Positions 33,001 through 57,525 of a stretch of 64,000 bases of DNA are shown here, piece by piece. The notes under the pieces were generated by a model. That model did no database searches and was not told the origin of the DNA. It saw only the letters and a program-made list of their open reading frames with translations. This DNA is from Promethearchaeota archaeon (GTDB taxonomy: Archaea > Asgardarchaeota > Lokiarchaeia > Sigyniarchaeales > SOKP01), in assembly GCA_030599585.1 (NCBI GenBank), contig JAUVNS010000009.1, forward strand, positions 96,001-160,000, given 5' to 3'. The first letter of the stretch is position 1, and every line of letters starts with the position of its first letter. The translations under genes and the position numbers were made by a program.

Positions 33001-33170
33001 TAATGATATTGTTTTTTATTTTGTTTATGATTTTTGCTAAAAAATACCCGTAAAATTGTGAAGATTTTTTCTCATCGTGACACGAAAGTAGAGAGCGTTA
33101 AATTGACGATTTGACAAGTCTTAATTTTTACCGATAAATCGTCGTGTAATCTCACTTTACGAATGCGAAA
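33001..33170. repeat. Dispersed intergenic repeat, copy 1
   Basis: Shares an identical 26-mer CTTAATTTTTACCGATAAATCGTCGT (33120-33145) with 41164-41189 and aligns over ~130 bp. Ends exactly at the NACHT stop codon. Confidence 0.85.
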
Positions 33171-36100: not shown

Positions 36101-37541
36101 GATTTTTGATATATTCTTGAATTTGTAATGATAAATTAGGATGATTTAACTTTTTATATTGAGAAGTTAAATCAAAAAACCGTAGTTTTAGAGAACTTTT
36201 TTCATAGTTGTGTAGGAGTTGATTTATAATTTCTTCTTTTTTCTCATCAGAAAACAACATCAAATCTGTTTGAAGTAATACTTCAGGTTCTGAATCAATT
36301 ATTTTATCATATAAATCTTGATTAAAGGAACAAAGCCACGCTACAACTTCTCTCAATTGAGGAATAATCTTACCATCATATGAATTTTTTATTACACTTA
36401 GGATCTGAACTGTTGGTATCTCTTTTTTAATAATATAATCCGCAGCTAAAAATTCTAAGAAACTCCAGTGTGCCCACCGGCGAACTGGTCTTGACGATTC
36501 AAACAATCCACAAGCAAGAGTTTCTGAAATACAAATATCAGTAACATCAAATGCTTGCCCTAATACATTTTCTTGACCTTGTCGTAGAATAGATTCGTGG
36601 ATGAATTCATCTGTCATTCCTTCGATTTGTGTAGAAGTCCAAATCGAATATTTTCCTGAAAAAGCACAAAGTGCGGCAATGCGTGCAGCAACGATATATT
36701 TTTGTTCAGGAGTAAAAATAATTCCAAGTCTCTCATCTCTTCTCATTTCATTAGCTTCTTCACATAAGTAATGGCAGTAGAATCTATATAAATCTGTTTT
36801 ACTTCCAGATAAATATCCTTCTTGATTATATTGATGTATTAAAATTTTTAATGTGATCGGTATTGAAGCAAATATACCTGCTCCCATAGTTACAATTTTT
36901 TCCATGAAATCTGAAGGTGAGGTATTTTCCGTTTCTTCAACCTCACCATTAGCGACTTCTTCAATGTCTTTTTTACGTAGTGGTACAAGCGTATATTTTA
37001 AGAAATTGTTGCTACCAAAAATATTTATTAAATTATCATTTAGACCGTGTGGCCAATACCCCGCTCGACAGGCAATTCGGAGATATAGCCTATCCTTTGG
37101 GATATCTTTTAGACTTTCTACTAAAAGATTTGCAATAACTCCCTCACGCAAGAAGCATTCGTCGAAACTATCTAATAAGAGATATAGATTATAATTTCCA
37201 GTACGCCAATCTTGAAATTTAGCATGATTAAAAATCTTATCATCGAAATGAATTTCATTTCCAATACTACTTAAATTGACTTTAAGAATCTCACCTTTTT
37301 CATTGTCAAAATCTTGAAAAGATTTTTCTAAAGCAACGGTCTTCCCTATACCCGGTTCTCCCAAAAGTACTATGCAATTCTTCTCAAGCTTTATAGGATC
37401 TTTGATTAAATGCGAATTAGGGGAAAATTCGTACTCTGGGTCTTCTAAATATCCTTCAGGGGATATGATAGGTTTTTTATCACTTGGACACCAGAAGCGG
37501 GTCCATTCATAAGTTCCCGACATTTTTATTCCCCACATCAT
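33171..37541 (-). CDS. Large NACHT/STAND NTPase with helical repeats and a C-terminal PD-(D/E)xK nuclease-like domain (likely start ATG 37523)
   Basis: Walker A GEPGIGKT, Walker B LLLDSFDE, RIACR, HWSFLEFLAA, C-terminal PDIVI...VEVKGRW. Confidence 0.82.
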   Translation of the reverse strand: MMWGIKMSGTYEWTRFWCPSDKKPIISPEGYLEDPEYEFSPNSHLIKDPIKLEKNCIVLLGEPGIGKTVALEKSFQDFDNEKGEILKVNLSSIGNEIHFDDKIFNHAKFQDWRTGNYNLYLLLDSFDECFLREGVIANLLVESLKDIPKDRLYLRIACRAGYWPHGLNDNLINIFGSNNFLKYTLVPLRKKDIEEVANGEVEETENTSPSDFMEKIVTMGAGIFASIPITLKILIHQYNQEGYLSGSKTDLYRFYCHYLCEEANEMRRDERLGIIFTPEQKYIVAARIAALCAFSGKYSIWTSTQIEGMTDEFIHESILRQGQENVLGQAFDVTDICISETLACGLFESSRPVRRWAHWSFLEFLAADYIIKKEIPTVQILSVIKNSYDGKIIPQLREVVAWLCSFNQDLYDKIIDSEPEVLLQTDLMLFSDEKKEEIINQLLHNYEKSSLKLRFFDLTSQYKKLNHPNLSLQIQEYIKNPENPRDTKIFAIKIAEECNLLSLIPLLIGLVLDDGEDIQIRKFAAYALESFSNTQNIEEIESLKPIALSDENSGDDYDLKGISLIILWPNHIKFNELIEHLPDAILGYGGAYMRFLYQHFIEKLPNTEIMSALKWIGDNPRMFIPMAKSFFDEILTQILIKALNLVDIDGIIDGVSQALSALIIDGNYLRERWNESQINLLMKQDQELRRKISKRVLIILPFDKSLLIPLISHLLHDYGQKNLFELIQQEDLTWLIDEVKNTEEYEYKEKLALIIYRMLFMEPNWSDIAFGLYNLPVFHPHYIRWFGPIDYDSELASKMRLDYEREQSDKEKFEQLQRSRAPTPLDPPLQERMRNHLDRIEQGKIIFWDHLNREMMSEHRMVDNQSVFNPNLTSMPGWRFSSEKTQDRILFAAKKFVIKGEPNNQEWVGTNKISFPAYAGYRALRLILEMDPEYIRNLTAETWEKWMPIILLYEFGTYGQNIVDPEKLFINRDDANLRLNPEILFRNMLLHMGYPNAKSQLVTTLLAQIDYVNEQTYSLAILSKIEMIYDDFIGKSLQDKLVEGNLKPDIVGNILEFLLSHSYERINDYTKNLLKNHSSPDENEKLKSIQAAKTLLIFSPQNSWETVKTIIQDDNDWGREVIKNIANEARFNKGMFENYLEDQLADLYIWVSGQYPKDSDKKLTGGPKFLQSDDFISFWREDIINYLELKGTSDSVKALRKIIRHLPEVRESIAYRIIRAQEITRMKSWKPPTPQEIYDLFQNTKSRLIQSEVHLLEATIESLVRFEDKLQGRGYTPIAINFWDYKNRPVNDPVFRPKHEEVLSDNVRNHLIDDLNKVIIHREVDISPSSTPDIVINAISPRSLQGQNRVLSIVVEVKGRWHQKLTNNMQDQLLEKYMKPRELSHGLYLVGWFESEYWDSDDSKLKSPSIKKFQSLPELNNYLQAQARELSKEGFLVKSKIINVSLNEIHLKRYRS

Positions 37542-37962: not shown

Positions 37963-39318
37963 TTACGAAATAATCTCGTCCAATTTCTCGTAAAGGATTT
38001 TATTGATTCTTTTTGGATATTTCATTTTTGCTTCAATTAATTCTAAAATGTCCGAATCTTCTAAGACCATAATAATTTTTTTTTGATCTGTACTGTTTCT
38101 ATTCCTTCGTCTACAATTTTCTAAACATTTAGCTTTATCTTCAATCTTACGAACAACTATAAAACCAAACATACCCGTGCGGGGTATTAAACGAGTGTCC
38201 AATTGATCATATTCGGGATTTCCAGGATCATTTGAATAGTTCTTACATTCAATATATATATTAGGACAAGGAATCTTGTATACTTCTTCTAAATCTTTGA
38301 AAAAGCCCTTCTTATTCTTTCTTCGAAATTTAACATCAATTCTAATCCCCTCTCCTGGAGCTTCTATTTTCATATCGGTCAATTGTCCTTTAAAAATGTA
38401 TCTCAAAATATTTCCAATTATATCTTGAAATCTGTAAGCATCTAGCTTCCCTTCCTCAGTTAATTTAAGCTCCTCAGCCAACAATTCTAAAATGGACATG
38501 AACTCTGTTGAAACATAATGACCGTCATTTTGTACCGTTCCCTTTTTAATTAAATCGTCAAGCTTTAAAGCTCTTGAGAAAATAATCCTATCTTTAGGTC
38601 GTGAACGGTAAACGATATTAGTATAAGCAAATTTTTTTAACTCCTCGGAATAATCATCATCTATTTTTAATCCACAAGACTCAATCATTGTCTCAATTTC
38701 TTTTTCATGAAGTTCTACATAAAAAGTTTCAGTACTCTTTTTTTTAGCACCGGGTAGATATCCATCAAGAAATTTACGAATATAACGTTTTGCGTAATCG
38801 TTTTTTCCAATTCTTATCATAGGATCAGAATACCAAATAAATGAACCGTTATTTTTTAATAATTTTCTAATCAGTAACAACAAGCATAAACGTTCCACTG
38901 GAATTGGCATTACTGTGGGAACATTCAGTAACAATATTATATCAAAGAAATTCTCGGTAAAGGTGTAGATATCTTTCGGAAAAATTATAGGGTGAAAGTT
39001 ATCGTATTCCTGTAATTCATTAAGTCTCTCTTCAGTTTTTGAACCTTTCTTGAATAATTCTTCAAATTCAGCAGCATAAACTTGGAATCCTTTCTCTACA
39101 AAATATTTAGAATTCCTTAATCTAGCTGCTCCTAAATCTAATATCTTCGTTGAAGCGGGCCTCTTCCGTTCGGTAATTTTATTAAAAAGATTTACTAATT
39201 GACCACCCGGTTTGGGCATTTTTGGAGCTGAATGGGTAACATCAATTTTTACACTTGAATAACTAAAATTCTTAAATCCCGTTTTCGGTTTAAATTCATA
39301 TATAGGCGATTTCCACAT
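37963..39318 (-). CDS. Class I SAM-methyltransferase fused to a C-terminal PD-(D/E)xK restriction-endonuclease-like domain
   Basis: N-part: ILDLGAARLRNS, FDIILLLNV...ER. C-part: RIDVKF...IECKNYSNDPGNPEYDQL. Confidence 0.72.
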   Translation of the reverse strand: MWKSPIYEFKPKTGFKNFSYSSVKIDVTHSAPKMPKPGGQLVNLFNKITERKRPASTKILDLGAARLRNSKYFVEKGFQVYAAEFEELFKKGSKTEERLNELQEYDNFHPIIFPKDIYTFTENFFDIILLLNVPTVMPIPVERLCLLLLIRKLLKNNGSFIWYSDPMIRIGKNDYAKRYIRKFLDGYLPGAKKKSTETFYVELHEKEIETMIESCGLKIDDDYSEELKKFAYTNIVYRSRPKDRIIFSRALKLDDLIKKGTVQNDGHYVSTEFMSILELLAEELKLTEEGKLDAYRFQDIIGNILRYIFKGQLTDMKIEAPGEGIRIDVKFRRKNKKGFFKDLEEVYKIPCPNIYIECKNYSNDPGNPEYDQLDTRLIPRTGMFGFIVVRKIEDKAKCLENCRRRNRNSTDQKKIIMVLEDSDILELIEAKMKYPKRINKILYEKLDEIIS

Positions 39319-41081: not shown

Positions 41082-41215
41082 AAAAAATACCCCTTAAAAT
41101 TATGAAGAATTTTTCTCCTCGTGAAACGATAGTAGAGAGGGAGTAATTGATGATTTGACTGAGCTTAATTTTTACCGATAAATCGTCGTATAATCTCACT
41201 TTGCGAATGCGAAAT
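41082..41215. repeat. Dispersed intergenic repeat, copy 3
   Basis: Direct repeat of 33039-33171 with scattered mismatches. Confidence 0.85.
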
Positions 41216-41562: not shown

Positions 41563-42336
41563 ATGTCTGAAAAGAAGGAAAAGTCTATTCATGTGAGAGT
41601 TTCTGAAGAATTTTACACTGTTATTAAAAAAAACGCAAAAATTTTCTATTCGAGTGTTGTAGAATTCTGTAGAAGTGCTATAACCGACAGGATTTATCAA
41701 ATTGAAAATCCTCAGTTATCTAATGGTAATGTAAATGCTCTTGACATCAGATATTCGATCTTTAAGAAAATTATAAAAAAATTAATGATAGAGAGTGCCA
41801 ATAATTCAAACCTAAGGACCAACCAAAAAGTTTACAAAGTTATTAAAATATTAAATATATTTGATAACTGCTCTCTGAGTCAATATATACAACCCAATAC
41901 TATAAAACCAGACTTTAATAAGTTATCTCAAATCCTATTCGACTGTGATTTTGAAAGTTTCAAAAGAAAAGTTCGTCAAAAAGAAGTAAAAGAAGAAAAG
42001 ATAAATAGAAACACAATAATCCTTGCAGGAGATTTAGGTTTAGAATTGGTAAATTTCTATCAAAACTATGAAGAAAAAAATCTAATTAAAGTAGCTGATA
42101 TTCATAGTCCATTTTCATATAAAATTGAGAATAATGATCAATATTTTACTGAAACATTATATTTTAAAGGATTTTTTAAAGCTGCATTAGTTCTTTTAGA
42201 ATCAAATGAACTCATTGAATTAATTGGCAAGGAGTATGAAGGAACTGACTCCAAAACCCTCTGTAGAATTAGAGATTATCTAAAGATTCTTGATTTTATA
42301 AAGAGGTATTCTATTAATTATTTATTATATCAGTAA
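41563..42336 (+). CDS. Hypothetical protein with an N-terminal ribbon-helix-helix
   Basis: KSIHVRVSEEFYTVIKKNA...SSVVEFCRSAI. Confidence 0.6.
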   Translation: MSEKKEKSIHVRVSEEFYTVIKKNAKIFYSSVVEFCRSAITDRIYQIENPQLSNGNVNALDIRYSIFKKIIKKLMIESANNSNLRTNQKVYKVIKILNIFDNCSLSQYIQPNTIKPDFNKLSQILFDCDFESFKRKVRQKEVKEEKINRNTIILAGDLGLELVNFYQNYEEKNLIKVADIHSPFSYKIENNDQYFTETLYFKGFFKAALVLLESNELIELIGKEYEGTDSKTLCRIRDYLKILDFIKRYSINYLLYQ

Positions 42337-42396
42337 GCTAATTTTTAATAATCTTCCGTCCCCGTGATGCCCCCTCTTCATGAATTAGAATAAAAT

Positions 42397-42777
42397 CTAA
42401 TCTTCAATATAAATCTTATCGTAAAAATTTTTGTTCAGTTCATCAACAAATTGCGATAAATCGTTCTCATCCCCATCATCATCAAGTTCAGCGGATAATA
42501 AATACAAGTCTTCTTCTGTCCTGGTCACCGCCACATAAAAAATTCGTCGTTCTTCTTCTAAATCTTCTTGTCTTTTAAGAGATAAATAATCTGGAAAGAA
42601 ACCATCAGTTAACATTGGTATAATAACAGTATTCCACTCCAATCCTTTCGCTCTATGAATCGTTGATATCACTAATCTTGATTCAATTTCATTTGTTTTT
42701 ATATTCTGATTGTACTCGCTCTCGTTAAGGCTTAGATGATTGAGGAACTCTCCAATGTTTTTAAATTGAGCTGTCAT
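42397..42777 (-). pseudogene. UvrD/PcrA helicase C-terminal fragment
   Basis: STIHRAKGLEW and EEERRIFYVAVTR (motifs V/VI). No Walker A/B; only 126 aa. Confidence 0.8.
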
Positions 42778-42819
42778 CTCGATTAAGGATTGATTTTTGA
42801 CTAATTTTTAAAAAAATCC

Positions 42820-44364
42820 TTAGTTTTGCATTTTCCATAAAGTTAAAAAATTCCTAGCAAGCTTATGTTCCTCTGCTATTTTATCCGCTATTTCTCTATT
42901 TATCCCTGGTTTTAGAGCTTTTTTCTTTGTTAATTCAATTGCACATAATAGTAAGAGAGATAAAATCACATCACTTGCTTGTTTAGGCATACTTTCGGAA
43001 TGCCAAAAATTTATTGGATACCCATCAGCAATGACATTAATTTTTCTTTTATCTGGGGCGAGATAATAAATAGTTCCAATTCTTTCATTAGTTTCACTAT
43101 TCATTAAAGGCTCACTATCTCGTTTTAACCTATTTAGTTCATTTAGGTCTATTTCATATTGCTCTGATGATGTACTTACTATGTATGAATTAAAATCTAA
43201 ATTTCTGATTACATCAGATTCAATAGCATTATACCCTGAAGCCCCTATTACAAAATCTTTATTTTTACATGCTTGACTAGCTAAATCATAAACCTTATAT
43301 CCTTTTATTGCAGCTCTTAACATTCTGGTAGGTTTAGGATCATAAATCTCAACATTTACACCTAACATTTTTAGCCGTTTAGCAACCTTCCTACCAATCG
43401 TCCCAAATCCTAAGACCGCTACTTTCATTCCGCCAAATCCGATATGAGAAACCATTTTATTAAGATTATTAATAACTGCATCTGCAATATATCTAGGTTC
43501 AAATTCAGTCTTAAAATCACATGTGGCAACTGAAATTAAAGGAAATTTGAGTTTATTTCCCGCCTTACTTTCTTCCCATGTTTTCGCATTGAATATCCCA
43601 CGAGTAGTCTGCTCCACAGCACCAATAACATTAGGGATCAAATTTACATATTTGTTATGAATCATTGGAACAATAAAACCTCCATCTTCAATAATGATTA
43701 TTTCATCTTCATTAAGTATTTCAGAATTTTGTAGATTGTCTAGGTGAACTTCAAGATTGTTATAATCGTCTACAATAGCCTCTTGTTGTATTAGATACTC
43801 AATAATCTCATCTTTTATAGTATAGGGATAATCTTTATAGAAGAAATACGATTTTTTCATCTCGAGTCCTAACGATTTAAGAGCTTCTACAAACGGAATT
43901 AGGTCTCTTAAAAAATGCATAATTATTAGCAAAAATTTTCCGCGGAAAGTATCTTTCAATGAAGTATCTTGAGAATAATAAGACAATAAAGGAGTATGTT
44001 CGAACAAATCTTTTGAAAAATCTATGCTCGGAATAGTTTTTTTTATATGTTCACTAGTCTTTTTTAAGTTTTCTTTTATTTGTGCTTGCTGGAATTTTTC
44101 TTGTATGAGTTCAGATTCATTTTTAATTTTATCAGGGTTCTGTTTACTCCAAATTTGTATTTTATCCTCATCTTCTGCAATAAATTCAAGTATATACATC
44201 TTTACTTCAGGTTCTAATATAATCCAATCGACTGTGATATCATTCAATAAACCTCTATGTTTCCAGTAATTATAAAAATGTTCCGCTTTATAGCTATTAC
44301 TAGACTTAATATATCTAATTAATATTTTTAAATTTTCACTAAAATCCTCATCTTTCCTACTCAT
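42820..44364 (-). CDS. Divergent adenosylhomocysteinase-like NAD-dependent enzyme with an N-terminal extension
   Basis: IIMHFL, IEDGG, VEQTTRGI, KTEFEPRY, Rossmann VAVLGFGTIG, EID, DGYPINF. Confidence 0.75.
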   Translation of the reverse strand: MSRKDEDFSENLKILIRYIKSSNSYKAEHFYNYWKHRGLLNDITVDWIILEPEVKMYILEFIAEDEDKIQIWSKQNPDKIKNESELIQEKFQQAQIKENLKKTSEHIKKTIPSIDFSKDLFEHTPLLSYYSQDTSLKDTFRGKFLLIIMHFLRDLIPFVEALKSLGLEMKKSYFFYKDYPYTIKDEIIEYLIQQEAIVDDYNNLEVHLDNLQNSEILNEDEIIIIEDGGFIVPMIHNKYVNLIPNVIGAVEQTTRGIFNAKTWEESKAGNKLKFPLISVATCDFKTEFEPRYIADAVINNLNKMVSHIGFGGMKVAVLGFGTIGRKVAKRLKMLGVNVEIYDPKPTRMLRAAIKGYKVYDLASQACKNKDFVIGASGYNAIESDVIRNLDFNSYIVSTSSEQYEIDLNELNRLKRDSEPLMNSETNERIGTIYYLAPDKRKINVIADGYPINFWHSESMPKQASDVILSLLLLCAIELTKKKALKPGINREIADKIAEEHKLARNFLTLWKMQN

Positions 44365-44368
44365 ATCA

Positions 44369-45049
44369 TCACATCTTATAAGCAGATCTTAATTTTAGTC
44401 TTTCCTTATCTTCAAGAAGTTCCTTTTGTTTATCTATATCAATCTCATTTTTTAAATCTTTTGAGATACTTTCATATTCAGTACATTGTTCACACTCGTG
44501 CTTTTCAATATTCGTACATTCATATGTAGTATTCTTTAATGAAAGTATACTCTTAATATTGTATGCACCGAAGTCTTTTTCTATATCACCTATATATCGA
44601 TTTATAAATAGTCCAATACCTACTATTTCTAACTTATTTTTCAAAGCAAATGTTAATAGCTGTTTTATTGTATTTCCCGTGCTTATTCCGTCATCTATAA
44701 TTAGTACCTTTCCTTCAATGTTGAGATCTGATTTAAATTTTATAACACCTTCATTCCTCTTAAAAATAAGAACTTGAGCATTGAAGAGCTCCCCTATATT
44801 ATGTGCCATTATTGCTCCACTTCTATAATTAGCAGTAATGACATAATTAATGCTCAAATCCTTAAAAAATTCACTCAGTTTGCTTACTACATCATTTACA
44901 AATTCAGGAGATTGAAAAAGAATATCAGTATTAATATAATATTTGGTATGGTATTTTTCAGTAAATTTAAAATGTCCGTTAATTACGGCTTTCGCTGACA
45001 TAATAATATTCCAAAAATGCCCTTCATTATCTTCTTTGATCATTTCCAA
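44369..45049 (-). CDS. Type I phosphoribosyltransferase (PyrE-like), module B
   Basis: GHF...HTKYY, PRPP loop VLIIDDGISTGNT, C-terminal CEQC. Confidence 0.85.
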   Translation of the reverse strand: MEMIKEDNEGHFWNIIMSAKAVINGHFKFTEKYHTKYYINTDILFQSPEFVNDVVSKLSEFFKDLSINYVITANYRSGAIMAHNIGELFNAQVLIFKRNEGVIKFKSDLNIEGKVLIIDDGISTGNTIKQLLTFALKNKLEIVGIGLFINRYIGDIEKDFGAYNIKSILSLKNTTYECTNIEKHECEQCTEYESISKDLKNEIDIDKQKELLEDKERLKLRSAYKM

Positions 45050-46218
45050 TCTCCAGGCATTATATTTGGCTTAGTAGGCTGAATTCCTTTTTTACATGAA
45101 GGACAATCGTCAAAAGAATAAACATCTTCATCTTCTTGTATTAGTGACTCAAAAGTGTATAAAGGAAATGCTGTCATTCCAGCTCTTAGGTTGAATATAC
45201 TACAAATACCTCTAATTCGAGACCCTTTCATCCTAGCGAGTTTAATTAATTTATTTACTATAAACCCAGTAACTACTACATCTATTACTATTAGACCATA
45301 TGAACCCTTTTCTATTTTAAATCCGTCACGTAATACTAAATTACCCTCCTCTTTTTCGCTCAATTTTGCATATATTGATTTAACATCTCCCCCGATGGCT
45401 TGAGCTAAACGATGGGCAAGAATAATATTGCTAGGTGTCTCAACTGTTAAAATATAGCTAATATTTTTGAGTTTGATAAAAATATCGGCAAAGTGGATAG
45501 CGATGTGTTTAATTAATCTAGGATATTCCATTATTTTTGAGACATGATATAACTTTTTTACATGTACACCAGATGGAAGAATAAAATGGCCTTTTTCAAT
45601 CATTAAATTATATCTATCTTTAATTAGGCGTGGTAGAGTCATGCCTATATATGGACTGATTTTTTCAAAGTTTTTTACTTCCAAAAATTCCCATTTTTCT
45701 TCAGAAGTCTCTGAAATCTTAAGAAAATTATTTTTTATTAAATATTCGATAGTATTATCCATAACTTCTCTTTTCCTATCAAGTTGCCGATAAATTTCTG
45801 GTCTCGTTAACGAATGTTTCAATAAAATTTTAAATACATCGTTTGCGTTATCATCTTTTGCTCCAAATAGATAGGGGTTCATATTATCATCAATTGCTAA
45901 AAAAATCAATGAAGCTTTTTTAAGTGATTCATCCACACTTTCAAAAACATCAACTTTTATGTTAACTCCAATTACTGGAATTATACTATTCTTTAATAAT
46001 GGGATTAAAAAGGAATCACAGAAAGAGTCATCCATTAATTCAACCATAACATAGTCTAATATGATAATTTGAGTCGCCTCATTAATTCTTTCTTCAATTC
46101 TACCTAATAGATACTTAGCTTTATCTCGATCAACACAATGAGTCCAATCATAGCGGAATTGCATAGAAGCAATGTTCCAATATAATATATCTTGTATTAT
46201 ACTTTTCGTTTCATTCAT
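45040..46218 (-). CDS. STAS-like + winged helix + PRTase-fold protein, module B
   Basis: ILDYVMVELMDDSFCDSF (STAS/DUF4325-like), LTRPEIYRQLDR...IEYLIKNNFL (wHTH), GHFILPSG, IVIDVVVTG, CPSC. Confidence 0.75.
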   Translation of the reverse strand: MNETKSIIQDILYWNIASMQFRYDWTHCVDRDKAKYLLGRIEERINEATQIIILDYVMVELMDDSFCDSFLIPLLKNSIIPVIGVNIKVDVFESVDESLKKASLIFLAIDDNMNPYLFGAKDDNANDVFKILLKHSLTRPEIYRQLDRKREVMDNTIEYLIKNNFLKISETSEEKWEFLEVKNFEKISPYIGMTLPRLIKDRYNLMIEKGHFILPSGVHVKKLYHVSKIMEYPRLIKHIAIHFADIFIKLKNISYILTVETPSNIILAHRLAQAIGGDVKSIYAKLSEKEEGNLVLRDGFKIEKGSYGLIVIDVVVTGFIVNKLIKLARMKGSRIRGICSIFNLRAGMTAFPLYTFESLIQEDEDVYSFDDCPSCKKGIQPTKPNIMPGDWK

Positions 46219-46220
46219 CT

Positions 46221-47327
46221 TTAACTCGGATTATAATCTTTTTTTCTTGGAATTAAAATATTTATATGCGTACCTGGCAAAAAGCGCCAAGGTTTATCAA
46301 AATCGAGAGGATAAGTTTGATTTCCTGCCTTTGAACAAATGGATCTTATAAAAATTAGACCGTTAAATTTATCGACATATTTTCTAGCTATTTTTATCCC
46401 CCCATGAGTTTCATTCTTAGGATAAGCATTTTCTGGGAATCTCCCTGATAAAACTTCTTGAATCACAGTAAAATGTTGTTTATTTTTGTAGATATCTGGG
46501 AATTTATTTAGAAGGCTTTGACGAATTCCAATACCACCATCAACAATCGATATTTCGATATTTGGATCCTTTACATAACTATTTCTATCACGTGCGTGAA
46601 CCATTATAAATCCTTCACTTTTACTATGGCGATAAATATTTGTGCAGAGCTCAGAGACGACATCTGATGCGAACTTTTTTATATCTCCTTTATGCATTCC
46701 ATATTCATTCATAAGTATATCTTGTATAGTTCTTACTAGAATTTTAGTCAATGCTGCACCTAAATCCGATCTATTTGTAATTTTTCTAATTCTTAGCAAA
46801 ACATTACTTTTAAAAACTAATGGACTAAGATTTTGACTATAGTCCTCCTCTAAGACACCCCATTCATGAAAGTGCTTAAAGAAATTCCAGTTTCTTAAGA
46901 ATAATAATGTATCCATGCTTAGTTTAACTATTATTTTCTTTTGCGTAATTTTATAACAGAATTTACCAAGTATATGAAGCATGAGAATCTCAAGTTCCCC
47001 GATGAATAGTGTCTTTGATAGGTCGAAAACAATCGATTTTTTATATGTTAAATTAAAAAGATTTTCGTAATATTCCTCAATATTAATATAAGTAGAAAAT
47101 GGCTTTTTTAAGTCTTTTAAAAATGCCTGAAATTGAAAAAGTAGATTATTAAAACACTCAAACCGAAAATTAAACCTGAAGGGAAAGACAAACGTAAAGT
47201 ACTTACTCCCTTCTTTATTTTTTTTAAAAAATGATTTATATGTATTTAAATTATAGGGTAGAAACTCTATATTTGTTTTTACAATGAACTTTAAATAATC
47301 TTCCTCTACGCTTTTTATTCCTGACAT
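46221..47327 (-). CDS. STAS-like + GHKL/HATPase_c (anti-sigma-factor-like kinase)
   Basis: VFDLSKTLFI...LFLRNWNFF; N-box SELCTNIYRHS; G1 IVDGGIGI; HGG; PGTHI. Confidence 0.8.
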   Translation of the reverse strand: MSGIKSVEEDYLKFIVKTNIEFLPYNLNTYKSFFKKNKEGSKYFTFVFPFRFNFRFECFNNLLFQFQAFLKDLKKPFSTYINIEEYYENLFNLTYKKSIVFDLSKTLFIGELEILMLHILGKFCYKITQKKIIVKLSMDTLLFLRNWNFFKHFHEWGVLEEDYSQNLSPLVFKSNVLLRIRKITNRSDLGAALTKILVRTIQDILMNEYGMHKGDIKKFASDVVSELCTNIYRHSKSEGFIMVHARDRNSYVKDPNIEISIVDGGIGIRQSLLNKFPDIYKNKQHFTVIQEVLSGRFPENAYPKNETHGGIKIARKYVDKFNGLIFIRSICSKAGNQTYPLDFDKPWRFLPGTHINILIPRKKDYNPS

Positions 47328-47948
47328 ACTAATCCTTTTAACAAATAACTCTTACTATTATTATCTTTTTGTCTTAACAATTTTAACTATTTATTCTTTT
47401 ATAATTCTTTTATGATTATGTATATATAAATATTTTATTTTAAAGTGCGAACTTTAGATTTAGATAAGAACTAGTATATAAATCTTTGGTTTTTTGTTGT
47501 AGATTTTAAGAAATATTTTTCTTGATTATTTAGATTAATATTAATTTTTCATCTTTTCTAGATAAAAATAAAATTATACTATTCAATAATTCTGTTTCAA
47601 ATTATTAAACTAAATGAGTTTTATTATTAGAAAACATATTGTAGAAATTAGCAACAAATTAAATTTTCTCTTTTTAAAGCTTTTAAACAAAATGTGTTTT
47701 GAACTTAATTTTATTTAAATCTTAAAATCTTTTCTTAATTCTTCATTTTTAGTTCTATAGCAACTAATCTCTTTAATACATATAATTATTGTTTAGAAAG
47801 AATTTTTGTTTAATTATAGAAAAATCTGTGCAAAATTTGCCTGTTAGCTGATGGATATTAAAATCTGATACTAACAAGAATTTATGAGTTTTTTGATAAA
47901 TCTTGTTTATTTATTTGAAATTTCTTTTTTACTACTTAATTTAGATTC

Positions 47949-49106
47949 TTATATGCTCTTACTAGATGGATCACCAGCCTTTTTTAGTATTGTTTTTTCT
48001 TTGAAAATATTTAGTTTAATAACCCTGTCAAATTCATTTACACTATTAAACAATTTAATGAGGGAATTTCTTCTTTCATAATATAGAATTATTTCTCGAA
48101 TTTTTCCACTAAGGGTACCTCCAGGTAATTCATCAAATTTTATATCTAAATACAATTCACATAAAGTCTTTAGATTCTCCATGTTTAGCTTCTCTCTTAG
48201 ACTTTCGAAAATAATTAATTTTGACCTTTTGGGGATAAAAAATTCTTGTTCTATACTATTTTCATACTTTTGAATAAATTCAGGTTCAACTTCTTCCATT
48301 AAGTTTCGTTTATATTTCTTCCATTCATTATCCCAAAAGCTTTTATTCAATTCTAAAACCAGTCCAGCAAATTCAAATGGAAAAAACTCAACTTTCACAT
48401 TATTCTTTATAAGATAATTTACTCCTTTTCCTGAAATTTTTGGATTAGGATCTATTATGCCAATCCAAACTTCTTTAATTCCATTATTAACAATTCGTTC
48501 TGCGCATGGAATTTTATCTGTAGATCGTCGTGTACATGGTTCTAAAGTGGTAATTAATATAGAATTCTCATAATTCAACTTTTCCTTTTTCTTAACCAAT
48601 GCTGTATACTCAGCATGGTCTCCAGGTGCATTTTCCCCTCTATAAGCATTCTGAATAATTTCATTATTTTTTATTATTACTACACCGACTTTAGGATGAA
48701 CATTATTATCTTCCGATTCACAATTTTTAGATATTTCTATAGATTTCTTTATGCCCTCTAAAACTATATTCTGTTGATTTAATTTTAAATGTTGGTCGAT
48801 ACTTTTTTTCCTATTATTTTTATTAATTCTAAAAAGTTTTCGAATATCTATTCGTTCATTTGAGATTATAGCATCTCCTAATAATTCATTTAAATCAACC
48901 TTTTCTTTATCATTAAGATTTTCTATAAAAAAGTATTTTGCCTTATCATTTAATTGGTTCCATCGAAAGCTAATTGCTTTATACATTCCATTAGATTTAA
49001 AATCCAAAAAATAATTCTTTGCTATATTGTCTTCGTTTATTTCTAATTTACTCAATATAAAATTTAAACTCTCATCAAATCCATCTTTGATTTTTTTTGA
49101 CATCAA
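47949..49106 (-). CDS. RibD-like Zn deaminase with a C-terminal effector-associated (EAD-like) helical domain
   Basis: HPKVG, HAE, TLEPC-x9-C, DPNP; no reductase domain. C-terminal LKTLCELYLDIKFDELPGGTLSGKIREIILYYERRNSL. Confidence 0.75.
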   Translation of the reverse strand: MMSKKIKDGFDESLNFILSKLEINEDNIAKNYFLDFKSNGMYKAISFRWNQLNDKAKYFFIENLNDKEKVDLNELLGDAIISNERIDIRKLFRINKNNRKKSIDQHLKLNQQNIVLEGIKKSIEISKNCESEDNNVHPKVGVVIIKNNEIIQNAYRGENAPGDHAEYTALVKKKEKLNYENSILITTLEPCTRRSTDKIPCAERIVNNGIKEVWIGIIDPNPKISGKGVNYLIKNNVKVEFFPFEFAGLVLELNKSFWDNEWKKYKRNLMEEVEPEFIQKYENSIEQEFFIPKRSKLIIFESLREKLNMENLKTLCELYLDIKFDELPGGTLSGKIREIILYYERRNSLIKLFNSVNEFDRVIKLNIFKEKTILKKAGDPSSKSI

Positions 49107-49117
49107 TGTTACCTCGC

Positions 49118-49801
49118 TTAGTATATATCTCCATATGCAGGTTTAATTTTTAATTTATTTTTTTTTCCCAAAAGTGTTTTTCTCATATTATCATTCATAT
49201 CTCTGTTTTTTAGTTCTTCTTTTATCTTTCTATATTCTTTACATAAATTACACTTTTCTTTTTCAACTAGCTTATATCTTGGTTCGTTTAATGATAAAAT
49301 ACTCTCTACCTGAATATTTCTAAAATCTTTTCCTAAATCATTTATATATCGATTAATAAAAAATCCCATACCTACAATTTTTACATCTTGATTTCTTGTA
49401 ATTCTAAGTATTTGTGTAACTGTATTTCCTGTATTTATCCCGTCATCAACAATTAATACATTACCTTTAATATTCTCAACTGAAGTTGTATCGACAAAAC
49501 CTCGCTCTCTACGGATAATCATCACTTTTGAATTAAACTTTTCTCCTAAATTATGGGCTAAAATGGCTCCACTTCGATAATTCGGACTTATAATATAATC
49601 AACTTTTTGATCTTTAAAAAATTGATACAAATCAACGATAATCATCTCAACATAATATGGATACTGAAATATTAAATCAGTATCAATAAATATACCAGAA
49701 TGATAATTATTTGTATAGATAAAATGTCCCTCAATGACAGCATTAGCTTCATAGATAATTTTAAGGAATTTTTTATTAGTACTATTTACTACCATTTCCA
49801 A
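49118..49801 (-). CDS. Type I phosphoribosyltransferase (PyrE-like), module A
   Basis: GHF, NYRSGAILAHNLGE, VLIVDDGINTGNT, CNLC. Paralog of 44369-45049. Confidence 0.85.
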   Translation of the reverse strand: MEMVVNSTNKKFLKIIYEANAVIEGHFIYTNNYHSGIFIDTDLIFQYPYYVEMIIVDLYQFFKDQKVDYIISPNYRSGAILAHNLGEKFNSKVMIIRRERGFVDTTSVENIKGNVLIVDDGINTGNTVTQILRITRNQDVKIVGMGFFINRYINDLGKDFRNIQVESILSLNEPRYKLVEKEKCNLCKEYRKIKEELKNRDMNDNMRKTLLGKKNKLKIKPAYGDIY

Positions 49802-51504
49802 TCACCAAGTTCTATATTAGTCTTATATACTGATTCATTTTTTTGACATAGAGGACAATTGCTTTTTTGAAATATATCCTCATTTTTATGAATTAGACTT
49901 TCATATTTATGTGGTGGAAAATATATACTTCCTCCAGCTAAATTAAATATACTACAAATGCCTTTTACATGAGCTTTGTGAGTTTTTATCAATTCTATTA
50001 GCTTTTTGACTGTAGATCCTGTAATAACCACATCAATGAAGATTAAACCGTATTCACCTTCCTCTATTGTAAAACCATCATGCAAGACAAATTTAGTTTT
50101 ATCATAGCTATATTTAGCAAAAATAGATTTAATTCTCCCTATTCTTTGAGCAATACGATGTGAAATAATAATATTGCTGGGCGTATCTATAGTTAATATA
50201 AAATCTACACTATTTGAGAAAAAATCAGCTATATAACTTCCTATATACCTAGTAAGTCTAGGATATTTTAATAGTCCAAACACATTATATAGCTTTTTAA
50301 TGTGCACTCCCGAACTTAATTCATAATGCCCCACATCAATAATTTCATTTTCTTTTTTTTTAAGCTCCTTTTTGGGAGACCTACCTATAAATGGAATTAT
50401 AGCTTTAATTAAATTTACTATTAAGAATTCAAATTTCTTTTTTGGAGTTATATCCTTTTTAATCAAAGATTTTTTTAATAAATATTCTATGGATGAGTCA
50501 ATCTCTTCAGATTCTCTATCAAGTCTTAGATAAATCTCATATCTTGTAAAAGATATGCCCTTCCATAAAATAGTAAAAATTTCATTTGAAATTTTGTCTT
50601 TAATCCCGAATATATAAGGTATATTTTCTTTATCTATAGCTAAAAATTCTATATTCCTTTTATTTAATTCATCATCAATATCCTCTAAACCCATTTTTTT
50701 AAACATTTTCGGTTTTTTGAAGACATCTCTATTGATATTTACTCCTACTATGTGTTTTTTTTGTTCATATTTTCTTAAAAGTGGATATAAAAAAGAATCA
50801 GCAAAAGAAGGATCAATTATACTTACCATAGCAAAATCGCTTGATATTATAGAGCCAGTCAATACTTTCGCCATTTCTAAATATTGGAGATGCTTCTTAG
50901 AAAGTATTCGCTGAACTAAAAGATTAGATTTATAGAATTGTTTGAGTCTCTTGAATACTGAACCTTGTGGAATCCAACATCTATCATCATCTGAAATTTC
51001 AGACAATTTTGAAGGATTGAGATCTAAAATTAGAATGTTTAGTAATCTTTCTCGAGCAAGATTTCGAAGATCACTAAATGACTGAGCATGTAAAACTCTT
51101 CTTTGAACACTTCTAAATACATCAGATGTCATACCCCCTTCAAAACTCTCTAAAATTTCACTCCTTGGAGTGTTAACTAAAACTTGATTTAATATTTTTT
51201 GTGCTATCAGATAAAACTGTAAATCTCCAAATGCCCTTTGTTTTTTATTCGCTTTATTTCTATATTGTTCTATAAAGTCGTATTCTTGAACAATTAGTTT
51301 TTTAGCCATATTTCCCAAATAGCTTGCGTCCCAACCCATCTTCTTTGCAATTTCACTTAATTCGTAATTCTCTTCAATCAATTGAATGAACTGCTCTTTA
51401 TTATATTTATTGAATTTCTTTCCTAATGGATATAATCTATTAGTATCCCCTTCGGAATATTCATGCAACTCCATTAGATGTTCACGTATAGGATCTAAAA
51501 ACAA
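49789..51504 (-). CDS. HTH-like N-region + STAS-like + wHTH + PRTase-fold protein, module A
   Basis: SDFAMVSIIDPSFADSF, FTRYEIYLRLDR, GHYELSSGVH, IFIDVVITG, CPLC. Paralog of 45040-46218. Confidence 0.75.
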   Translation of the reverse strand: MFLDPIREHLMELHEYSEGDTNRLYPLGKKFNKYNKEQFIQLIEENYELSEIAKKMGWDASYLGNMAKKLIVQEYDFIEQYRNKANKKQRAFGDLQFYLIAQKILNQVLVNTPRSEILESFEGGMTSDVFRSVQRRVLHAQSFSDLRNLARERLLNILILDLNPSKLSEISDDDRCWIPQGSVFKRLKQFYKSNLLVQRILSKKHLQYLEMAKVLTGSIISSDFAMVSIIDPSFADSFLYPLLRKYEQKKHIVGVNINRDVFKKPKMFKKMGLEDIDDELNKRNIEFLAIDKENIPYIFGIKDKISNEIFTILWKGISFTRYEIYLRLDRESEEIDSSIEYLLKKSLIKKDITPKKKFEFLIVNLIKAIIPFIGRSPKKELKKKENEIIDVGHYELSSGVHIKKLYNVFGLLKYPRLTRYIGSYIADFFSNSVDFILTIDTPSNIIISHRIAQRIGRIKSIFAKYSYDKTKFVLHDGFTIEEGEYGLIFIDVVITGSTVKKLIELIKTHKAHVKGICSIFNLAGGSIYFPPHKYESLIHKNEDIFQKSNCPLCQKNESVYKTNIELGDWKW

Positions 51505-51793
51505 TTCTTCTACTACTAACTTTACCTGATAATCCAGGAAATTCGTCTCTCAAATAATTCAGAAAGTATAATGCTTTTGCTTCTGCAGTATCTTTTTTAT
51601 TAGCCGTCAAGAAAAAGTTCTACGAAAAGTTATCGTCATTTTTTCCTAAATTTAAAACAAATTGAGATGTGTAGACTGTCCCATCACCAAATGGATTACA
51701 CAACCATGAAACCGCATCGTCTTTTGTTCCATCATCATTAGGTACTTGAGCAATACTAACTATTCCTTGCCATAAATCACAATCTAAAGTCAT
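51482..51793 (-). pseudogene. Small hypothetical gene with one in-frame TAG (51620-51622)
   Basis: ATG 51793 after GAGGT. Reads MTLDCDLWQG...DDNFS*NFFLTANKKDTAEAKALYFLNYLRDEFPG...RSYT*. Confidence 0.45.
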
Positions 51794-51794
51794 T

Positions 51795-52235
51795 TTAATT
51801 ACCTCGATATTCTTTAAATTCATTACTGAAAAGTTGCGAAGATGACTTAGTAGGAAACGGTTCGCTAAGCTTCGTAGGTATTTCTTTACTCACAAGCTTT
51901 GATACTAACCGATTTACGCGTTCCGCCACGGTCTCTAAAAGCTCGTTCTTCTCCTCGATTTCCTTTCTTAGTTGAGATTCCACTTTTGTAGATGAGTTAA
52001 GTTTCTCCTCTTGGCTTTTTTCCACTTGCTGATTTTTGAAGCGACCCGGAATAAACAATACAAAATCCGTCACTTCATCTACCATGCGACCTCGGCATTG
52101 AAGGAGCAACTGCTTCAACTCTTTAGAGTTAATTTTTCCGATTGAAAAGTTTTTTATAGCGATTTTGAGTTGGTCTAACTCGCTTTTATTGAAAATAATT
52201 TTCTCTACTATCTGCTCGATTTGATCGTTGTCCAT
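51795..52235 (-). CDS. Hypothetical protein with a coiled coil
   Basis: 146-aa ORF tightly coupled to its neighbours. Confidence 0.6.
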   Translation of the reverse strand: MDNDQIEQIVEKIIFNKSELDQLKIAIKNFSIGKINSKELKQLLLQCRGRMVDEVTDFVLFIPGRFKNQQVEKSQEEKLNSSTKVESQLRKEIEEKNELLETVAERVNRLVSKLVSKEIPTKLSEPFPTKSSSQLFSNEFKEYRGN

Positions 52236-56091: not shown

Positions 56092-57525
56092 TTGAATTTA
56101 AAAAATAGTTTAAGTCGTAAAACAATTGCTCTTTTCATTATAGCTGCTTTTTTACTACCGTCATTCAGTTTAATAACAATGGTTGCTGCTGAAGAACAAA
56201 CATATCAAAATATAACTGTAGACACAGCTAATTATATGATAGAACATGAAAATAAATATCCGAACCTTTTTATTTTAGATGTTAGAGATACAATCGAATT
56301 TAACTTAGGTCATTTATTCGATTCTATTCTAATACCCCTCAATGGACTTGAAGCAAGAATCGGTGAACTTGAAGATTATAAGACTTCTGAGATAATAATT
56401 TACTGTAAATCTGGTTATCGAAGTCAACAAGCAAGTGAAATTTTAGGTGAATATGGTTTTACAAAAATATATAATATACTTGGTGGCATTTTAGCATGGA
56501 TTGATGCTGATTATCCAATTTGGACAACTTCACACCATATTACAGTAGATGAAATTACCGATACAAAATTTGAATTACTAATAGAACCACAGCTTTTGTA
56601 TTATTCAGGTTGTTATTCTTGTGATGAGAATTATGAATGTCCAAGTCAAAGTGAATCAATAAGTATAACTTCTGAGGTGTTAGAACAAGGAGAAAATTAT
56701 TTAAAAACTATCACGTACTATGATTTTAATGGAACGGTCTATGAGTCTATTCATACTACTACTTTATTATGGAGTTATGACAAAGTTACAAATGACATCA
56801 ATAAGACTATCTATTTCACATCAACAGAAATTATGTCAGAAAATTCTCTTTTCCAATTTTATCAGTTAGATTATTTTATAGATCACCAGAATTACAAGTT
56901 GACAATTCATACCACCCTTGAACCTGAACCTCAAAATTTAGACACTTATAGTGTTGCTTTTAGCACTATAAAGTATGTTCCTGTCAACGGAAACCCTATA
57001 ACTTCAATGGAATTTATTAAATTCAACATGTCCGTTACATTATCACAACAATACGACATTTTAGCTGATATCGCGGAAGAAATGGCAGAGATTTATAAAA
57101 AATCAGATGATCAAGACATAATGACGCTTCACGAAGGTTATATTAATATAGGGGATGAATTTAGCTCTCTTTCCGAATTAGTAAAAGAACAACTTGCAGC
57201 ATATGATTATCACATCCTTAAAAGTTATGCAGCTTTGGCAGATGCTTTTATACCTAATGGCGGTGGTGGTGGTGATCCTCCTCCACCTTGTACACCAGAT
57301 CCGTTTTGCCTTGTAGTATGTAATTTCATTCTTGATCTTGGTTGTGCTCTTGGAGTGGCGGTTATTTGTATATATGTATGTGCTATTCCGTGCGCAATTC
57401 CTCCTCTTTGGCCGGCTTGTGTTGTTTGTACAATTGCGTGTGTTGCTATCGGATTTACTTTATGCTACCTTATTGGGGTTTATGGTGTTAGCCCGGGTTG
57501 TGAATGGTTATGTTGTCAAGTATAA
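56092..57525 (+). CDS. Secreted rhodanese-domain protein with a C-terminal Cys-rich halocin-C8-like domain
   Basis: Signal peptide; ILDVR...GHL...YCKSGYRS...GGILAW; GGGGGDPPPP linker; 78-aa hydrophobic tail with 14 Cys. GGTGA SD. Confidence 0.72.
   Translation: MNLKNSLSRKTIALFIIAAFLLPSFSLITMVAAEEQTYQNITVDTANYMIEHENKYPNLFILDVRDTIEFNLGHLFDSILIPLNGLEARIGELEDYKTSEIIIYCKSGYRSQQASEILGEYGFTKIYNILGGILAWIDADYPIWTTSHHITVDEITDTKFELLIEPQLLYYSGCYSCDENYECPSQSESISITSEVLEQGENYLKTITYYDFNGTVYESIHTTTLLWSYDKVTNDINKTIYFTSTEIMSENSLFQFYQLDYFIDHQNYKLTIHTTLEPEPQNLDTYSVAFSTIKYVPVNGNPITSMEFIKFNMSVTLSQQYDILADIAEEMAEIYKKSDDQDIMTLHEGYINIGDEFSSLSELVKEQLAAYDYHILKSYAALADAFIPNGGGGGDPPPPCTPDPFCLVVCNFILDLGCALGVAVICIYVCAIPCAIPPLWPACVVCTIACVAIGFTLCYLIGVYGVSPGCEWLCCQV

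What the first reader, a model, noticed from the sequence alone, without database searches (positions are those of the whole stretch)
42820..51504. Duplicated PRTase-pair module with swappable nucleoside-acting enzymes: candidate undescribed conflict system
Seen: two co-oriented, tightly coupled operons. Module A is STAS-wHTH-PRTase (49789-51504) > PRTase (49118-49801) > deaminase-EAD (47949-49106). Module B is STAS-GHKL kinase (46221-47327) > STAS-wHTH-PRTase (45040-46218) > PRTase (44369-45049) > AdoHcyase-like (42820-44364). The cores are clear paralogs (TPSNII..HR.AQ.IG; NYRSGAI.AHN.GE; both large genes end GDWK overlapping the next start), while the last gene differs. Both terminal enzymes belong to families acting on nucleosides or nucleotides. 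Established: nucleotide depletion and modification are common anti-phage strategies, and PRTase folds are known from conflict loci. Inference: a regulated PRTase pair makes or senses a nucleotide and works with a variable effector. I cannot match this arrangement to a named system.
Basis: partly seen in the sequence, partly recalled or inferred. Interest (0 to 1): 0.8.

Follow-up and report, generated by a model that had tools for sequence, protein, structure and literature searches.

The report
Kinase-switched twin-PRTase effector-docking operon
An Asgard archaeon carries one intact and one decapitated copy of a rare, mobile four-gene operon in which a switch kinase and a pair of nucleotide-enzyme-like proteins are predicted to hold an interchangeable "weapon" protein through a shared docking domain, which makes it a testable candidate for an undescribed antiviral or stress-defence system.

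Summary
The genes, motifs and overlaps are real, but only module B (42820-47327) is complete: STAS-GHKL kinase > STAS-wHTH-PRTase1 (degenerate PRPP motif) > PRTase2 (intact motif) > AdoHcyase-like enzyme. Module A is a decapitated relative. It has no kinase, and its first gene is a chimera of an unrelated host-lineage gene fragment and a STAS domain lacking about 50 residues. A and B are 46% identical, so they are not a recent duplicate.

The four-gene order recurs in 10 of 10 other unfused loci read. The last gene is swapped among a deaminase, a PNP nucleosidase, an AdoHcyase-like enzyme, PRTase-CE (retron III-A-like) and helical or membrane proteins. Most share an unnamed ~95-aa helical N-terminal domain. 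A complex model docks this domain on PRTase2 (score 0.69, best control 0.00). The core was not found in 399 other genomes of the phylum and matches no PADLOC model.

Closest known: CapK/CapS and VapKSC. Earlier notes of this scan describe similar kinase + double-PRTase + swapped-effector cassettes in bacteria (not tested here). Verdict: undescribed candidate conflict system (about 0.75), no experimental support; docking/partner-switch mechanism favoured over a diffusible second messenger.

The parts
46221..47327 (-). B1: STAS-like + GHKL ATPase/kinase, 368 aa, SpoIIAB/CapK/VapK-like architecture; no histidine-phosphotransfer domain detected
   Evidence: HATPase_c E 3e-7; N-box E226/N230/H234 and G1 D263-G265-G267 invariant in 10 homologues; N-terminal STAS by profile hit to PDB 4hyl, E 4e-4
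45040..46218 (-). B2: STAS (about 10-118) - wHTH (about 121-185) - PRTase1 (about 194-385). PRPP motif lacks its first acidic residue (I312-D313); invariant STAS Ser65
   Evidence: model pLDDT 88.7; VIA-align Z 19.1 to XPRTase, wHTH Z about 10; VapS is best STAS hit, E 0.004; S65 invariant in 17/17 unfused members; alignment
44369..45043 (-). B3: PRTase2, pyrE_Therm-like, intact DD..TG PRPP motif, His-His-CxxC cluster, family-specific C-terminal helical extension; predicted docking surface at residues 8-20 and 169-174
42820..44364 (-). B4: N-terminal helical docking domain (about 1-100) + AdoHcyase-like NAD-dependent enzyme with non-canonical active site
   Evidence: NF004005 E 5e-38, far below cut-off; PDB SAHH hits; conservation over 92 homologues; docking domain
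47949..49106 (-). A3: docking domain (about 1-95) + RibD-like CDA-fold deaminase (H164-x-E166, C191, C201 intact) + EAD7
   Evidence: Pfam dCMP_cyt_deam_1 E 2e-13, EAD7 E 1e-10 over cut-off; motif positions; leave-class-out HMM E 3e-8; model of the domain pLDDT 85
49118..49795 (-). A2: PRTase2 paralogue, intact
   Evidence: 46% to B3; motifs intact
49789..50862 (-). 3' part of A1: truncated STAS (from strand 2 on; keeps the Ser, S233) - wHTH - PRTase1
   Evidence: aligns to B2 51-392 only; keeps 55 of 64 family-invariant positions versus 58 for B2, but almost none of those before position 51
50863..51504 (-). 5' part of A1: in-frame fragment of an unrelated host-lineage gene with an HTH-like region; replaces the kinase gene and the STAS start
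   Evidence: 58% identity to residues 502-714 of ~770-aa ORFs in L034 and L035, DNA 72-73%
47328..47948 (.). 620-bp spacer upstream of module B, holding repeated non-coding pieces; no operator demonstrated
   Evidence: 289 bp 88% identical to own contig C4; ~100-bp piece found in many same-genus genomes; repeat and promoter scans not above chance

Best explanation
Module B is one intact copy of a rare, horizontally moving conflict (most likely antiviral, abortive-type) operon that works as a protein assembly under a partner-switch. PRTase1 (catalytically impaired, carried on the STAS-wHTH protein) and PRTase2 (PRPP motif intact) form a heterodimer. The last gene product docks on PRTase2 through a shared ~95-aa helical N-terminal domain and is held in check. 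On an infection or DNA-damage cue, the GHKL kinase acts on the STAS domain of B2, probably by phosphorylating Ser65, and changes the STAS-mediated oligomer. This releases or re-clusters the docked effector, and PRPP or nucleotide binding by the PRTase pair may act as a second checkpoint. In B the effector is an NAD-dependent AdoHcyase-like enzyme that would destroy a nucleoside or nucleotide-type metabolite. Module A is a decapitated relative whose deaminase effector and PRTase2 are intact but which lacks its own switch. Shown here: gene order, effector swapping, shared domain, motif states, chimeric A1. Modelled: docking on PRTase2. Inferred: trigger, phosphorylation, substrates and the antiviral role.
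For: Same order in 10/10 unfused loci read, kinase verified in 9. Fusions of PRTase1+PRTase2 (P0093, P0099) and of the whole core with the kinase (P0114) exist. Last genes in homologous loci hit known defence-effector models: PADLOC PN-superfamily Effector E 2e-16 and 5e-21, retron PRTase_III-A E 9e-44, dCTPase E 2.5e-9; EAD7 on A3. Shared N-terminal domain recovered with its own effector class left out: E 2e-13, 4e-11, 3e-8 (deaminases), 8e-16 (PNP L003), 3e-12 (AdoHcyase-like L007), 4e-5 (L026), against a best background E of 0.03. Only 2 of 95 AdoHcyase-like homologues carry it clearly, plus B4 weakly. Complex model B2+B3+B4(1-102): score 0.69, best of 3 controls 0.00; the mark was reached by 58 of 80 solved complexes and 2 of 110 mismatched pairs (counts hold only roughly here); runs agree in at least 91% of contacts; partner pLDDT at least 76; the interface uses the conserved Y25/H29/K35 stretch of the domain and W11/I14 of PRTase2. 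Patchy distribution: not found in 399 other phylum genomes, including 41 of the same genus. Neighbours include type I R-M/MADS-like genes, IS21, a serine recombinase and defence-type ABC ATPases. Precedent for kinase-STAS release of a toxin: VapKSC (PMC13373217).
Against: The invariant Ser65 aligns one residue after VapS Ser48, and it is lost in the two fused proteins aligned, so phosphorylation is not secure. B4's own docking domain is divergent (E 19 with its class left out, 0.004 with it included), and those of L014, L025, L037 and L024 are weak or undetected. The complex score is model confidence from shallow alignments. It fell to 0.00 when B2 was replaced although the confident contacts are only with B3, which may mean the heterodimer is needed or that the control disturbed B3. 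One fully fused homologue precedes histidine-kinase and response-regulator genes, a signalling rather than defence context.
Confidence: 0.45

Rival explanations
1. Second-messenger system: kinase activation switches on PRTase2, which joins PRPP to an unusual base (or runs in reverse) to make a signalling nucleotide. The shared N-terminal domain is its receptor, or channels it to the docked effector, as SAVED, STING or CARF domains do in CBASS-like systems.
For: PRTase2 keeps the double-acidic PRPP motif in nearly all members; one conserved core drives unrelated effectors through one shared domain with conserved K, W, K, E residues; W47, K55 and E66 are not among the confident interface residues.
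Against: The domain is a small all-helical HEAT/MIF4G-like bundle with no significant match to a nucleotide sensor (best Z 7.5), and the model places it on an outer surface of PRTase2. No product is known.
Confidence: 0.25
2. Transcriptional stress module: B2 is a CapS/PurR-like repressor (STAS-wHTH plus a ligand-sensing pseudo-PRTase) that autoregulates the operon. PRTase2 and the last enzyme form a short pathway that salvages or detoxifies damaged or modified bases; it is a DNA-damage response rather than a killing system.
For: The wHTH-PRTase part matches B. subtilis PurR structurally (Foldseek E 1e-9, VIA Z 17.6 but rmsd 13.8); CapK/CapS has the same STAS-GHKL + STAS-wHTH pairing; the same deaminase and AdoHcyase-like domains are fused in other proteins (P0176, P0196, P0229).
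Against: Last genes include PRTase-CE and membrane or helical proteins with no metabolic role; no conserved operator was found upstream; the wHTH has almost no invariant residues apart from L160.
Confidence: 0.17
3. Housekeeping pyrimidine/purine or SAM-cycle salvage operons.
For: The closest characterised families are PyrE, RibD and AdoHcyase.
Against: All hits are far below curated cut-offs; the genome has two separate AdoHcyase genes and other PRTases; the core was not found in 399 phylum genomes; PRTase1 lacks a PRPP-binding acid; the last gene is interchangeable.
Confidence: 0.03
4. Module A's chimeric first gene is a mis-assembly, and the real genome has an intact second operon.
Against: The junction is in frame; core residues of the orphaned STAS strand have drifted to Ser (L54S); no second kinase or missing STAS start exists anywhere in the assembly; the donor gene is otherwise absent from this genome; the surrounding region is a patchwork of gene fragments.
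Confidence: 0.07

Closest known systems
CapK/CapS (Chambers et al., EMBO J 2026, PMC13373217)
   Same: STAS-GHKL kinase gene next to a STAS-wHTH protein with a conserved Ser at the start of STAS helix 2; kinase Asn conserved; linked to immune-type genes.
   Different: CapS is a 184-aa stand-alone repressor of a separate operon. Here STAS-wHTH is fused to a pseudo-PRTase and coupled to a second PRTase and an effector. No N-terminal HTH was detected on B1. ssDNA sensing and operators were not shown.
VapKSC (same paper)
   Same: STAS-GHKL kinase + STAS protein + toxic effector in one coupled operon; VapS is the best PDB match of the STAS profile (E 0.004).
   Different: The toxin is a fixed PIN nuclease bound directly by STAS. 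Here effectors vary and are modelled to dock on PRTase2 through their own domain. The conserved Ser is offset by one residue.
PRTase-bearing defence systems: ShosTA (PMC12961424), type III-A retrons, Ophion (bioRxiv 10.1101/2025.09.30.679545)
   Same: PRTase folds used in defence; a retron III-A-like PRTase-CE is one of the swapped effectors (L014).
   Different: There the PRTase is the toxin or effector. The core PRTases here belong to the pyrE_Therm-like branch, come as an impaired/intact pair, and hit no PADLOC model; no reverse transcriptase, DprA or radical SAM gene in the loci read.
Detocs and CBASS with PNP-family effectors (from my own knowledge)
   Same: Sensor/kinase-controlled operons with interchangeable effectors, including PNP nucleosidases and membrane proteins, carried on a shared N-terminal module.
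   Different: No histidine-kinase/receiver relay, no cyclase, no SAVED/STING/REC domain; the shared module is an unnamed helical bundle.
B. subtilis PurR
   Same: wHTH followed by a type I PRTase fold used as a ligand sensor.
   Different: PurR has no STAS domain, kinase, second PRTase or effector; domain orientation differs (rmsd 13.8).
S-adenosylhomocysteine hydrolase (AdoHcyase)
   Same: Fold, NAD-binding motif, and equivalents of His55, Asp131 and Lys186 (H150, D227, K285).
   Different: Glu156>Gln252, Asp190>Glu289, Asn191>Pro290, His301>Ser400 across the family; extra N-terminal domain; score far below cut-off.

Membership tests
CapK/CapS | GHKL kinase with STAS domain and catalytic N-box Asn | tested here: met
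CapK/CapS | N-terminal HTH on the kinase | tested here: inconclusive
   No HTH Pfam hit on B1; only weak LuxR/SmcR-type hits, E 0.15-0.9
CapK/CapS | Stand-alone STAS-wHTH repressor regulating a separate operon | tested here: not met
   STAS-wHTH is fused to a PRTase in all members
CapK/CapS | Phospho-acceptor Ser at the SpoIIAA-equivalent position | tested here: inconclusive
   S65 invariant but one residue after VapS S48 in the only alignment obtained; CapS register not visible
CapK/CapS | Activation by ssDNA; palindromic operators | not testable with these tools
   Repeat scans gave only AT-rich chance-like arms
VapKSC | PIN/VapC nuclease as third gene, bound by STAS | tested here: not met
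   Third gene is PRTase2 in every locus; no PIN hit on any last gene scanned
PADLOC-catalogued systems (2023 set) | Core genes match system HMMs | tested here: not met
   0 hits for the seven window proteins at E 0.01 and for fused homologues; DefenseFinder was not available
Type III-A retron | Reverse transcriptase + ncRNA with PRTase effector | tested here: inconclusive
   No RT gene annotated in the loci read, but most are short contigs; no Rfam or RT-specific search was run
PRTase-CE systems (Pfam PF24390; Nicastro et al. 2023, recalled) | PRTase-CE domain over the gathering score | tested here: not met
   A2 23.7 and B3 18.4 bits versus cut-off 27; met only by the L014 effector. The paper was not held, so a mention of this arrangement there is not excluded
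Orotate PRTase (PyrE, TIGR01367) | Score over cut-off and double-acidic PRPP motif | tested here: not met
   46-81 bits versus cut-off 150; motif intact only in PRTase2
AdoHcyase | His55, Asp131, Glu156, Lys186, Asp190, His301 (roles from PMC4647836) | tested here: not met
   Three kept; Glu156, Asp190 and His301 positions changed family-wide. Mapping rests on pairwise alignments to archaeal/bacterial SAHH and my knowledge of the numbering

The most novel reading that the evidence does not exclude
A categorically new immune architecture: a kinase-gated enzyme/pseudo-enzyme PRTase heterodimer that both makes (or senses) a non-canonical nucleotide and physically carries plug-in effectors through a previously unnamed docking domain. 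It would include a new effector class, an AdoHcyase-derived NAD-dependent nucleoside/nucleotide-destroying enzyme, and would operate in Asgard archaea as well as bacteria.
Probability: 0.25. Interest if true: 0.85.

Novelty: new variant of a known kind. Interest (0 to 1): 0.62.

Why it matters
Kinase-STAS switches were only recently shown to control bacterial immunity (CapK/CapS, VapKSC). This family would extend them to a modular platform with a PRTase pair as scaffold or sensor, a ~95-aa docking domain that lets unrelated effectors be plugged in, and an AdoHcyase-like family (95 homologues found) not, to my knowledge, described as a defence effector. It gives concrete residues and an interface to test, and adds to the little-studied defence repertoire of Asgard archaea. 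It also shows how such cassettes decay: one copy lost its switch by in-frame fusion to a host gene fragment.

Tried and rejected
PADLOC scan of the window proteins: no core hit. IMG/VR scan: no relative. Plasmid tblastn: only PyrE for B2, nothing for B1. GTDB back-translation scan returned only ordinary PyrE loci. Phylum sample around the L024 genome: 54 further hits, nearly all ending near model position 190 at about half the score, read as ordinary PyrE without inspecting each. Fold searches of the docking domain: only generic helical-repeat matches (Z at most 7.5, TM at most 0.58), which shows neither kinship nor a new fold. Search for longer proteins with the docking domain found only proteins already in hand (weak evidence). 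Operator and promoter scans not above chance. Attempts to view the CapS alignment failed. The 2023 PRTase-CE paper was not held. Literature searches for this gene combination found only the CapK/CapS paper as relevant. Rejected: recent tandem duplication (66% DNA identity, unresolved tree); housekeeping salvage; module A as an intact STAS operon. The docking domain was not detected in the genes after the fused cores (L028, L030) or in the HEAT genes of L024.
Full report
Host and setting. The window is C32:96001-160000 of a 4.85-Mb assembly. Archaeal GatDE, CDC48/CdvC-like genes and a bona fide actin (E 3e-132) indicate an Asgard archaeon. The finding lies in a lower-GC stretch (24-30% versus about 32%) that also holds a STAND-like ATPase with a nuclease-like tail (33171-37541), a methyltransferase-like/nuclease-like gene (37963-39318), gene fragments and repeated non-coding pieces. 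The nuclease-like readings rest on my inspection of motifs, not on family hits.

Observation. All seven ORFs, the quoted motifs and the stop/start overlaps are present. A1/B2 and A2/B3 are each 46% identical. Domain calls hold for B1 (STAS + GHKL), B2 (STAS-wHTH-PRTase), A2/B3 (PRTase), A3 (deaminase + EAD7) and B4 (AdoHcyase-like).

Correction 1: module A is decapitated. A1 matches B2 only from B2 residue 51. Its residues 1-214 are 58% identical to residues ~502-714 of a ~770-aa gene of unknown family in two same-genus genomes. Directly upstream lies what appears to be another decayed fragment. No second kinase exists in the genome. Downstream of the junction A1 keeps 55 of 64 family-invariant residues (B2 keeps 58), but the orphaned STAS strand has drifted (L54S). 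A2 and A3 are intact. Whether A is expressed, or served in trans by B1, is unknown.

Correction 2: not a recent duplication. DNA identity is 66%; both copies fall in a six-member clade (100/99) whose inner order is unresolved; A2 is closer to PRTase2 of other deaminase loci than to B3. Two acquisitions or an old duplication fit equally.

Family. A profile search of 1.84 billion representatives found about 14 full-length STAS-wHTH-PRTase1 clusters and a few fusions; most remaining hits cover only the PRTase domain and look like ordinary PyrE. I read ten independent unfused loci. All have PRTase2 next and a further gene after it; nine have the kinase verified upstream, and L007 is cut by the contig end. 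Last genes: deaminase with EAD7-like tail (L001, L005), PNP_UDP_1 (L003, L025), AdoHcyase-like (L007), PRTase-CE (L014; probably L027, cut off), helical protein with hydrophobic C-terminal segments (L026, L037), HEAT-repeat genes followed by an ABC-type ATPase (L024). PADLOC models of known effectors hit the PNP, PRTase-CE and deaminase proteins, while no core gene hits any model. Neighbours include type I R-M/MADS-like genes, IS21, a serine recombinase and AriA/GajA-like ATPases. GC of the loci spans 27-64%, and one lies next to an archaeal Hef/XPF gene. The core was not found in 399 other phylum genomes, many of them incomplete. PRTase1-PRTase2 fusions (P0093, P0099) and a whole-core fusion (P0114) support a physical complex, though the last precedes histidine-kinase and response-regulator genes.

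Catalytic anatomy. The kinase keeps the N-box and G1-box and shows no histidine-phosphotransfer domain, as in SpoIIAB-type Ser kinases (class from established knowledge). STAS Ser65 is invariant in 17/17 unfused members and begins helix 2 in the model, but it sits one residue after VapS Ser48 in the alignment; phosphorylation is therefore likely but not secure. PRTase1 never has the first acid of the PRPP motif, while PRTase2 keeps both: an impaired/intact pair, both closest to the pyrE_Therm branch and both keeping a His-His-CxxC cluster. A3 has intact Zn-deaminase motifs. B4 keeps equivalents of SAHH His55, Asp131, Lys186 and the NAD motif, but the Glu156, Asp190, Asn191 and His301 positions differ family-wide (roles in PMC4647836). 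It is probably an NAD-dependent 3'-oxidation/elimination enzyme for another substrate (inference). The genome has two separate AdoHcyase genes. The B4 domain belongs to a wider family (95 hits) with varied N-termini, some fused to a deaminase about 50% identical to that of A3.

Shared docking domain. The last genes begin with a ~95-aa region carrying K..W..K..E. With each effector class left out of the profile it was recovered at E 1e-8 to 1e-16 for deaminases, L003 and L007, 4e-5 for L026, and weakly or not for L027, L014, L025 and B4. B4 reaches E 0.004 as the best non-training hit among 5,058 genome ORFs once other AdoHcyase-like members are included. Only 2 of 95 AdoHcyase-like homologues carry it clearly. 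It folds as a small helical bundle (pLDDT 85) with only generic matches. In the complex model of B2 + B3 + B4(1-102) the domain docks on B3 residues 8-20 and 169-174 through its residues 25-37: score 0.69, best of 3 controls 0.00; the mark was reached by 58 of 80 solved complexes and 2 of 110 mismatched pairs, counts that hold only roughly for a three-chain job with my own alignments; runs agree in at least 91% of contacts and partner pLDDT is at least 76. I know of no like solved complex. The model supports binding; it does not show it.

Mechanism. Most likely (0.45) a partner-switch assembly: trigger > GHKL kinase > STAS of B2 > altered PRTase1:PRTase2 oligomer > activation of the docked effector, by analogy with VapKSC, with ssDNA as a candidate trigger by analogy with CapK. 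Rivals: a PRTase-made second messenger (0.25), a CapS/PurR-like transcriptional stress module (0.17), housekeeping salvage (0.03). The first two are not exclusive. Probability that it is a conflict/defence system of some form: about 0.75.

Novelty. No paper found describes this arrangement; the 2023 PRTase-CE paper could not be read and DefenseFinder was not available. Earlier notes of this scan report STAS-GHKL + double-PRTase + swapped-effector cassettes in several bacteria; I did not test their homology and they are not independent proof.

Noticed in passing
window 33171-37541 (-): 1456-aa protein with a STAND/AAA-like P-loop, HEAT-like repeats and a C-terminal PD-(D/E)xK-like motif; Avs-like by eye, no PADLOC hit.
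   Followed up: partly
window 37963-39318 (-): 451-aa methyltransferase-like N-terminus with a restriction-nuclease-like C-terminus; only weak TehB and mad2 hits.
   Followed up: partly
window 33039-33171 and about 41082-41215: ~133-bp repeat, 87% identical between the two copies, also on contigs C11 and C39 and in other same-genus genomes.
   Followed up: partly
window 42110-42815: UvrD C-terminal fragment and the end of the neighbouring ORF are duplicated at the start of contig C15 at 93% DNA identity.
   Followed up: partly
window about 47817-47919: ~100-bp non-coding piece present at 72-81% identity in over 20 same-genus genomes and once more on this contig; nature unknown.
   Followed up: no
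window 51505-51795: Apparently decayed fragment resembling an ORF in L036 and G231, directly upstream of the chimeric A1.
   Followed up: partly
P0158-P0248; L029:6962-9626: Widespread AdoHcyase-like family, mostly with a different N-terminus (wHTH/Zn-ribbon-like by inspection), fusions to a deaminase, NUDIX or PF24389; in Methanobacterium sp. SMA-27 it overlaps a 357-aa SAP-domain gene near a Schlafen gene and an integrase. Candidate separate conflict module.
   Followed up: partly
L028:1942-10489: 1076-aa fusion of kinase, STAS-wHTH and both PRTases followed by GAF-histidine kinase, receiver-HATPase and sigma54 response-regulator genes: the same core in a signalling context.
   Followed up: no
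window 56092-57525 (+): Secreted-looking rhodanese-like protein with a Cys-rich hydrophobic tail (also noted in e1-5655045).
   Followed up: no
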